From Escherichia coli (GTDB lineage: Bacteria; Pseudomonadota; Gammaproteobacteria; Enterobacterales; Enterobacteriaceae), in NCBI RefSeq assembly GCF_016026235.1, contig NZ_CP065613.1: a stretch of 64,000 nucleotides of DNA; one strand, written 5' to 3'. A program made the translations under genes and the position numbers. The notes beneath the pieces were generated by a model. The model worked only from the letters and a program-made list of their open reading frames with translations. It had not been told where the DNA came from and did no database searches. Positions 50,652 to 50,687 of the stretch are shown here, in pieces. The stretch's first letter is position 1; the number at the start of each line of letters is the position of its first letter.

Positions 50652-50687
50652 TTTACCTTTCGAAATTTCTGATAATCGAAAGGTAAA
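50652..50687. promoter_or_regulatory. 36-bp hyphenated dyad in the yoaE-manX divergent region
   Basis: TTTACCTTTCGA, 12-bp spacer, TCGAAAGGTAAA: perfect 12-bp inverted arms. Confidence 0.3.

What the first reader, a model, noticed from the sequence alone, without database searches (positions are those of the whole stretch)
50652..50687. Perfect 12-bp inverted repeat with 12-bp spacer between yoaE and manX
TTTACCTTTCGA, then AATTTCTGATAA, then TCGAAAGGTAAA; a related half-site TTTACCTTCCTTTG lies about 30 bp upstream (50607-50625). I do not recognise a known operator here. It could be a regulator binding site for yoaE or manX, or a hairpin in a 5' UTR.
Basis: seen in the sequence. Interest (0 to 1): 0.3.

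Follow-up and report, generated by a model that had tools for sequence, protein, structure and literature searches.

The report
Known NagC operator, strain-specific palindrome
The left half of this inverted repeat is the already published upstream ("distal") NagC repressor site of the E. coli mannose-transporter promoter, and the perfect symmetry comes from a rare single-base variant found in 4 of 5,423 E. coli genomes, so it is ordinary.

Summary
The perfect 12+12+12 inverted repeat is really at 50652-50687. About 0.2 such repeats are expected by chance in 64 kb.

It is not a functional unit of its own:
- **Left arm.** The left arm plus six spacer bases lies inside GATATTTTACCTTTCGAAATTTC (50647-50669). 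That sequence is listed in the literature as the "man distal" NagC operator.
- **Conservation of the operator.** A NagC matrix built without this site scores it 15.8 bits, second best in the window. A site of this type sits exactly 39.5 bp from the CRP site centre in 54 of 78 other Enterobacteriaceae loci.
- **Right arm.** The right arm is filler between that operator and the manX CRP site. It scores 3.0 bits for NagC and is not conserved, except for TAAA next to the CRP site.
- **Rarity of the perfect form.** 5,411 of 5,423 complete E. coli genomes, K-12 included, carry TCGAAAGTTAAA, an 11/12 match. Four genomes carry the T-to-G change at 50683 that makes the repeat perfect.
- **Transcription.** The repeat lies upstream of the manX start (50738) and of both predicted yoaE promoters, so a 5' UTR hairpin is not supported.

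The "related half-site" is a conserved CpxR-type box.

Verdict: already known operator plus a chance or mutational symmetry; low interest.

The parts
50652..50663 (.). Left arm of the reported inverted repeat (TTTACCTTTCGA). It lies wholly inside the NagC distal operator.
   Evidence: Sequence. Its column conservation follows the NagC motif (TTTT..C..CGAAA).
50664..50675 (.). 12-nt spacer AATTTCTGATAA. Its first 6 nt are the end of the NagC operator. Base 50672 is A here and C in 99.8% of E. coli genomes.
50676..50687 (.). Right arm TCGAAAGGTAAA, filler between the NagC distal operator and the CRP site. Base 50683 is G here and T in nearly all E. coli; this one base makes the repeat perfect.
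   Evidence: NagC matrix gives only 3.0 bits for 50670-50692. Only the last four bases (TAAA) are conserved across genera.
50647..50669 (.). NagC 'man distal' operator GATATTTTACCTTTCGAAATTTC, centre 50658, about -80 from the manX start.
   Evidence: Identical 23-mer listed as a known NagC operator in PMC3098098 Table 1. Leave-one-out matrix scores it 15.8 bits, second best of 63,978 positions. A site above 11 bits lies at a fixed 39.5 bp from the CRP centre in 54 of 78 other loci.
50687..50708 (.). CRP (CAP) site ATTACGGATCTTCATCACATAA, centre 50697.5, which is -40.5 from the manX start.
   Evidence: Match to the CRP consensus by inspection. ACGGATCTTCATCACA is almost invariant in 76 sequences. 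The position follows from the 115-nt UTR. That manX has a CAP site at -40.5 is from my memory of Plumbridge and Kolb 1991, which I could not read here.
50713..50735 (.). Promoter-proximal NagC/Mlc-type operator ATTTTTTCGATATCTAAAATAAA, centre 50724, about -14, overlapping the -10 TAAAAT.
   Evidence: NagC matrix 11.9 bits. Conserved across genera. The literature name 'distal' for the other site implies a proximal one. Mlc and NagC repression of manX is stated in PMC7907822 and PMC2806358.
50738..50738 (+). manX transcription start, inferred.
   Evidence: GTG start at 50853 minus the 115-nt 5' UTR stated in PMC3089445.
50616..50630 (-). TTTACCTTCCTTTGC is, on the yoaE strand, GCAAA-GGAAG-GTAAA, a CpxR-type tandem box. 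It is the most conserved block of the intergenic region.
   Evidence: [quoted passage not shown] TTTAC-N5-TTTGCAA is invariant or nearly so in 76 sequences. It adjoins the CpxR footprint homologue GCAAACGAATGT at 50629-50640 (PMC6952189).
50569..50587 (-). PhoP box of yoaE/yoaL (aTGTTTAactccCGTTTAa on the minus strand). It marks the yoaE promoter, well to the left of the dyad.
   Evidence: PMC5775216 Table 5 and footprint. Conserved.

Best explanation
The reported dyad is not one element. It is two adjacent pieces of the manX control region that happen to be complementary.

The left arm and the first six spacer bases belong to the distal NagC operator of manX (50647-50669, centre about -80). 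Together with a proximal NagC/Mlc operator over the -10 (50713-50735), it brackets the CRP site at -40.5. In this arrangement NagC, and at the proximal site Mlc, repress the CRP-dependent manX promoter. By analogy with nagE-nagB this would work by bridging the two operators; that step is inferred, not shown here.

The right arm is the 17-bp stretch between the distal operator and the CRP site. In nearly all E. coli it matches the left arm at 11 of 12 positions, a level expected by chance fairly often. In this strain a private T-to-G substitution at 50683 completes the palindrome.

The upstream 'related half-site' is a separate CpxR-type box serving the divergent yoaL-yoaE promoter.
For: - The identical 23-mer is listed as 'man distal' among known NagC operators.
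- A NagC matrix built without it scores it 15.8 bits, second best in the window. The proximal site scores 11.9 bits and the right-arm region 3.0 bits.
- In 54 of 78 other Enterobacteriaceae loci a site above 11 bits sits exactly 39.5 bp from the CRP centre. The longest inverted repeat in the same segment is no better than shuffles in all but three loci.
- On 76 aligned sequences the inner 8 pairs of the dyad are unpaired in 34-63 sequences. Only TTTA/TAAA persists, and each side is conserved for its own reason: NagC half-site and CRP flank.
- 5,411 of 5,423 E. coli genomes carry the 11/12 form. The G allele is in 4 genomes and the spacer A allele in 7, and the two occur separately.
- Geometry: manX start at 50738, giving CRP at -40.5.
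Against: - I could not read the primary footprinting papers (Plumbridge and Kolb 1991; Plumbridge 1998; El Qaidi and Plumbridge 2008). The operator's experimental status therefore rests on a secondary table.
- The centre-to-centre distance of the two operators is 66 bp, about 6.3 helical turns. That is not a clean integral number for looping.
- The 11/12 quasi-palindrome is itself mildly unusual (about 3% per intergenic region). It is kept almost invariant within E. coli and in the cryptic Escherichia lineage L006. Some weak function of the right arm is therefore not excluded.
Confidence: 0.85

Rival explanations
1. The 36-bp dyad is the operator of an unidentified dimeric or tetrameric regulator of manX or yoaE, with each arm bound by one subunit.
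For: The perfect repeat is far beyond chance in this window. It lies between divergent promoters. The 46-bp stretch is almost invariant within E. coli.
Against: - The perfect form is in only 4 of 5,423 genomes.
- The inner 8 pairs are not kept across genera and show no excess of compensatory change.
- There are no further copies of the arm in the window beyond chance.
- The left arm is already accounted for by NagC.
- Invariance within E. coli is also explained by the NagC and CRP sites, which fill most of the 46 bp.
Confidence: 0.04
2. The repeat forms an RNA hairpin in a 5' UTR of yoaL-yoaE or manX and controls stability, termination or translation.
For: The stem is stable in this strain: -10.5 kcal/mol as DNA, z -6.5.
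Against: - It lies 51 bp upstream of the manX start.
- It lies upstream of the PhoP-box and predicted sigma-70 promoters of yoaE.
- No promoter-like site would transcribe it, no terminator-like T run follows it, and no credible Rfam hit exists.
- There is no structural covariation.
- The stem weakens to -5.6 kcal/mol in the species consensus.
Confidence: 0.02
3. The right arm is an auxiliary NagC half-site. It repeats TCGAAA, the right half of the operator, 16 bp downstream. It would help a NagC tetramer or an alternative register of binding next to CRP.
For: TCGAAA occurs at 50660-65 and again at 50676-81. CGAAA is kept in the right arm in Escherichia, Salmonella and several Citrobacter.
Against: The best full-site score over the right arm is 3.0 bits. 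The right arm is replaced by unrelated sequence in Klebsiella, Raoultella, Kluyvera and others that keep a strong distal operator.
Confidence: 0.05
4. On origin only, and compatible with the best explanation: the T-to-G change at 50683 arose by template switching within the 11/12 quasi-palindrome (quasi-palindrome 'correction') rather than by an ordinary point mutation. The site would then be a small mutational hot spot.
For: - The change makes 50683 complementary to its partner C50656.
- The other private change, C50672A, also becomes complementary to its partner T50667 about the same axis.
- The G allele sits on at least two different flanking haplotypes: STEC1585 versus the window, EC2641 and OkiPb01695.
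Against: - The two changes occur separately in other genomes. One continuous copying tract would also have changed 50673-75, which did not change.
- A third rare variant (C50656T in strain ES3) does not increase symmetry.
- Two haplotypes can also arise by recombination.
- With four genomes the numbers are too small.
Confidence: 0.25

Closest known systems
NagC (ROK family) operators, in particular the two-operator-plus-CAP arrangement of nagE-nagB and manX
   Same: The 23-bp AT-rich pseudo-palindrome is identical to the listed 'man distal' operator. It has a high leave-one-out matrix score. A second operator lies over the promoter, with the CRP site between them.
   Different: The right arm is not a NagC site (3.0 bits).
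CpxR tandem box GTAAA-N5-GTAAA
   Same: The 'related half-site' 50616-50630 reads GCAAA-N5-GTAAA on the yoaE strand. It adjoins the homologue of the CpxR footprint reported in Salmonella. Each dyad arm contains one GTAAA.
   Different: The dyad arms have no second GTAAA at N5-6 in tandem, so they are not CpxR boxes. The G that creates GGTAAA in the right arm is strain-private.
Natural quasi-palindromes as template-switch mutation hot spots in E. coli (for example the thyA hot spot; from my own knowledge, not checked here)
   Same: An imperfect inverted repeat is made perfect by a base change that copies the other arm.
   Different: There is no experimental mutation data for this site. Only four natural genomes carry the change.

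Membership tests
NagC operator (left arm region, 50647-50669) | 23-bp sequence matching the NagC operator matrix | tested here: met
   15.8 bits with a matrix of nine other published operators. The range of those operators is 15.4-24.2 bits. It is the second best site in the 64-kb window.
NagC operator (left arm region, 50647-50669) | Recorded as an experimentally known NagC operator | tested here: met
   The identical 23-mer is listed as 'man distal' in PMC3098098 Table 1, compiled from El Qaidi and Plumbridge 2008 and J. Plumbridge pers. comm.. The primary footprint papers could not be read.
NagC operator (left arm region, 50647-50669) | Conserved in sequence type and in position relative to the promoter in related species | tested here: met
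   54 of 78 other Enterobacteriaceae loci have a site above 11 bits exactly 39.5 bp from the CRP centre.
NagC operator (left arm region, 50647-50669) | Partner operator in helical phase for looping | tested here: inconclusive
   The proximal site is centred at 50724, giving 66 bp centre to centre, about 6.3 turns.
NagC operator (left arm region, 50647-50669) | NagC binding and GlcNAc-6-P release at this DNA | not testable with these tools
   Needs EMSA or a footprint.
NagC operator (right arm region, 50670-50692) | 23-bp sequence matching the NagC operator matrix | tested here: not met
   Best score is 3.0 bits.
Palindromic operator of a dimeric regulator (the 36-bp dyad as a unit) | Both half-sites and their spacing conserved in relatives | tested here: not met
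   The inner 8 pairs are unpaired in 34-63 of 76 sequences. The perfect form is in 4 of 5,423 E. coli genomes.
CpxR box | Two GTAAA-like pentamers in tandem, 5-6 bp apart | tested here: not met
   For the dyad arms, GTAAA is followed at N5 by CCTTG (minus strand) or GATCT (plus strand), by inspection. The feature is met only by the separate box at 50616-50630.
Transcribed RNA hairpin or intrinsic terminator | Lies within a transcript; GC-rich stem with a T run, or covarying pairs | tested here: not met
   It is upstream of the manX start and of the yoaE promoters. No terminator-like site was found. There is no covariation and there are no meaningful Rfam hits.

The most novel reading that the evidence does not exclude
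The Escherichia quasi-palindrome might have a function of its own next to the NagC and CRP sites. It could be a second protein's site or a cruciform-prone element that modulates looping at the manX/yoaE divergent promoters. Alternatively it could be a recurrent template-switch hot spot whose 'corrected' allele has arisen more than once in E. coli.
Probability: 0.06. Interest if true: 0.3.

Novelty: already known. Interest (0 to 1): 0.07.

Why it matters
It matters little. The result assigns the feature to the published NagC distal operator of manX. It shows that the eye-catching perfect symmetry is a private allele of this strain and not a conserved signal.

The useful by-products are:
- a coordinate map of the yoaE-manX control region: PhoP box, CpxR-type box, NagC distal operator, CRP site, NagC/Mlc proximal operator, Cra box;
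- evidence that the distal NagC-type site is held at a fixed 39.5 bp from the CRP site across most Enterobacteriaceae, but is lost in the Enterobacter cloacae group.

Tried and rejected
- **Rfam** at permissive E-values over 50300-50950 gave only sub-threshold microRNA-type hairpin matches, which simply reflect the stem.
- **Promoter/terminator scan** found no terminator and no promoter that would transcribe the dyad.
- **Other copies of the arm** in the window, with up to 2 mismatches: 5 matches against 5.2 expected, none relevant.
- **CpxR reading of the arms** was rejected because there is no tandem partner pentamer.
- **IHF and CytR resemblances**, by eye only, are weak and were not pursued.
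- **A single template-switch tract for both private SNPs** was rejected. The intervening bases 50673-75 are unchanged, and the two SNPs occur separately in other genomes.
- **Primary papers.** Attempts to read Plumbridge 2001 and El Qaidi and Plumbridge 2008 failed because they are not held. The NAR 2015 ROK paper does not mention manX.
- **The 8-kb haplotype comparison** was partly spoiled by an IS insertion in the window. Only the columns near the locus were used.

Full report
**Observation.** The window reads TTTACCTTTCGA (50652-63), AATTTCTGATAA (50664-75), TCGAAAGGTAAA (50676-87). The arms are exact reverse complements. The window holds five perfect 12-bp inverted repeats with a spacer of 40 or less, against 0.21 expected from shuffles. 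The other four are GC-rich, short-loop and terminator-like. The feature is therefore real and not a chance event in this sequence.

**Context.** The region is the E. coli yoaE-manX divergent intergenic region. yoaE runs 50390 to 48834 on the minus strand. It is preceded by the annotated leader ORF yoaL (50536-50378, minus strand). manX starts with GTG at 50853. The manX 5' UTR is 115 nt (PMC3089445), which puts its transcription start at 50738. On that scale ACGGATCTTCATCACA is a CRP site centred at 50697.5, that is -40.5. ATTTTTTCGATATCTAAAATAAA (50713-35) lies over the -10.

On the yoaE side the literature gives two sites. One is a PhoP box aTGTTTAactccCGTTTAa, which maps to 50569-87 on the minus strand (PMC5775216). 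The other is a CpxR footprint in Salmonella, GCAAAGAGATGT, whose E. coli homologue GCAAACGAATGT is at 50629-40 (PMC6952189). A consensus scan adds a TTGCCA-18-TATGTT promoter-like site at 50612-50583 on the minus strand. Every known or predicted start therefore points away from the dyad. The dyad sits in the untranscribed spacer between the two promoter sets.

**What the left arm is.** A full-text search for the sequence found it in PMC3098098. Table 1 of that paper lists known E. coli NagC operators, compiled from El Qaidi and Plumbridge 2008 and a personal communication from J. Plumbridge. It includes 'GATATTTTACCTTTCGAAATTTC - man distal'. This is window 50647-50669. It contains the whole left arm and the first six spacer bases.

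I built a symmetrised matrix from the other nine operators of that table. With it:
- the man distal site scores 15.8 bits, second best of 63,978 positions in the window;
- the promoter-proximal site 50713-35 scores 11.9 bits;
- the best window over the right arm (50670-92) scores 3.0 bits.

The operator's own centre of symmetry is 50658. The two symmetries are different things.

**Relatives.** One scan of species-representative genomes with ManX returned 80 Enterobacteriaceae loci. Alignments show four strongly conserved blocks:
- the PhoP box;
- TTTAC-N5-TTTGCAA (50616-32);
- the CRP site with its left flank CTAAATT;
- the proximal operator.

In 54 of 78 other analysable loci a NagC-type site above 11 bits lies exactly 39.5 bp from the CRP centre. 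Examples are TATTTTTTGCGCTGCAAAATAAT in Klebsiella and GATTTTTTGCATCGCAAAATTAT in Trabulsiella. In the same segment the longest perfect inverted repeat is no better than shuffled sequence in all but three loci.

The four outer pairs (TTTA/TAAA) hold in most, because each side is conserved on its own: the NagC half-site and the CRP flank. The eight inner pairs fail in 34-63 sequences. Overall 57% of cells pair against 54.5% in shuffles, with no excess of double changes. The dyad is not conserved; the NagC site is.

**Within E. coli.** The 46-mer 50647-92 of the window is found unchanged in only 2 of 5,423 complete genomes. The K-12 version is found unchanged in 5,411. It differs at two bases: C instead of A at 50672, in the spacer, and T instead of G at 50683, in the right arm.

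The species consensus is thus an 11/12 repeat, with a DNA hairpin of -5.6 instead of -10.5 kcal/mol. Such 11/12 repeats are expected about 7 times per 64 kb by chance, and in about 3% of intergenic regions of this size and composition.

- The G allele occurs in four genomes: FDAARGOS_943, EC2641, STEC1585 and OkiPb01695.
- The A allele occurs in seven.
- The two alleles occur separately.
- The G allele sits on at least two flanking haplotypes.

Escherichia sp. MOD1-EC7003 (L006) has the same 11/12 right arm (TCGAAAGTTAAA). E. albertii (L004) has GCGAAAGTTAAA, a 10/12 match. E. whittamii and Escherichia sp. E1V33 are more diverged. Salmonella keeps 8/12.

**Mechanism.**
- *Shown or documented:* the left arm is part of a listed NagC operator. 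NagC and Mlc repress manX. The promoter has a CRP site at -40.5 by geometry.
- *Inferred:* NagC on the distal (-80) and proximal (-14) operators brackets CRP and represses by bridging, as described for nagE-nagB. The 66-bp spacing is about 6.3 turns, so phasing is not clear-cut.
- *Right arm:* it has no demonstrable role. Its last bases belong to the conserved flank of the CRP site.
- *Perfect symmetry:* it is best read as a private substitution. Both private changes increase self-complementarity about the same axis, which fits quasi-palindrome template switching. But one continuous tract is excluded, because 50673-75 are unchanged and the SNPs segregate separately. The numbers are too small to decide.

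[quoted passage not shown] It is the most conserved block of the region. It adjoins the CpxR-protected bases reported for Salmonella. It is a separate element serving yoaL-yoaE and not a third copy of a dyad half-site. The shared TTTACCTT is an overlap between a CpxR pentamer and a NagC half-site.

**Comparison and novelty.** The functional content is already known: the NagC distal operator, the CRP site and the CpxR/PhoP sites of the divergent promoter. The dyad as a unit fails the tests for a conserved palindromic operator, a CpxR box and a transcribed hairpin. What remains open is small. One question is whether the 11/12 quasi-palindrome, almost invariant within E. coli, has any auxiliary role. 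The other is whether T50683G is a recurrent templated mutation.

**Limits.** The primary footprint papers were not available. No transcription-start data set was consulted directly. All binding statements for this strain are inferences from sequence.

**Verdict.** Already known; interest 0.07.

Noticed in passing
window 47312-48833 (ORF 47619-48755, minus strand): About 1.5 kb of extra DNA lies between pdeD and the 3' end of yoaE. It encodes a 378-aa IS110-family transposase (Pfam DEDD_Tnp_IS110 + Transposase_20). It is absent at this place in K-12 and in FDAARGOS_943, even though FDAARGOS_943 is 100% identical to the window over 50380-50860, the yoaE-manX intergenic region..
   Followed up: partly
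window 50774-50786: CTGAATCGATTCG in the manX 5' UTR is almost invariant across 28 genera and looks like a Cra (FruR) box. Cra binding to the manX promoter fragment and a predicted Cra box are reported for Salmonella (PMC10100716).
   Followed up: partly
L054 2261-2357, also L058, L074, L075, L059 (Enterobacter cloacae group, Pseudenterobacter): These lineages have lost the NagC-type distal site (scores -0.2 to 7 bits). In its place L054 carries its own inverted repeat, CCTTACAGA-AAAA-TCTGTAAGG, and the others carry shorter, imperfect or differently spaced repeats. This may be a different regulator's site or another local quasi-palindrome.
   Followed up: no
L002 and L003 (Escherichia whittamii, Escherichia sp. 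E1V33), about 2300-2325: The distal NagC-type site is degenerate in these two Escherichia lineages (4.8 and 6.3 bits). E. albertii and Escherichia sp. MOD1-EC7003 (L006) keep the E. coli 23-mer exactly.
   Followed up: no
window 50542-50553: GGGCTACTGCCC, a small GGGC/GCCC hairpin, lies between the predicted PhoP-dependent -10 and the yoaL ATG. The GGG...CCC ends are kept across genera while the loop varies. It could be a 5'-terminal stem of the yoaL-yoaE mRNA.
   Followed up: no
window 50536 versus about 50587 (minus strand): yoaL is annotated as 52 aa in RefSeq (start 50536) but as 69 aa in an older table ([21 protein letters not shown]..., PMC6001520). The longer start codon lies inside the PhoP box. 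It would therefore be upstream of a PhoP-dependent transcription start.
   Followed up: no
window 35105-35127 and 35241-35263: The best NagC-matrix hit of the whole window (18.1 bits, CGTAATTCTCGTCGCAAAATTTT) and a 13.4-bit hit 136 bp away both lie inside the 3' end of the fadD coding region. They are probably chance matches.
   Followed up: no
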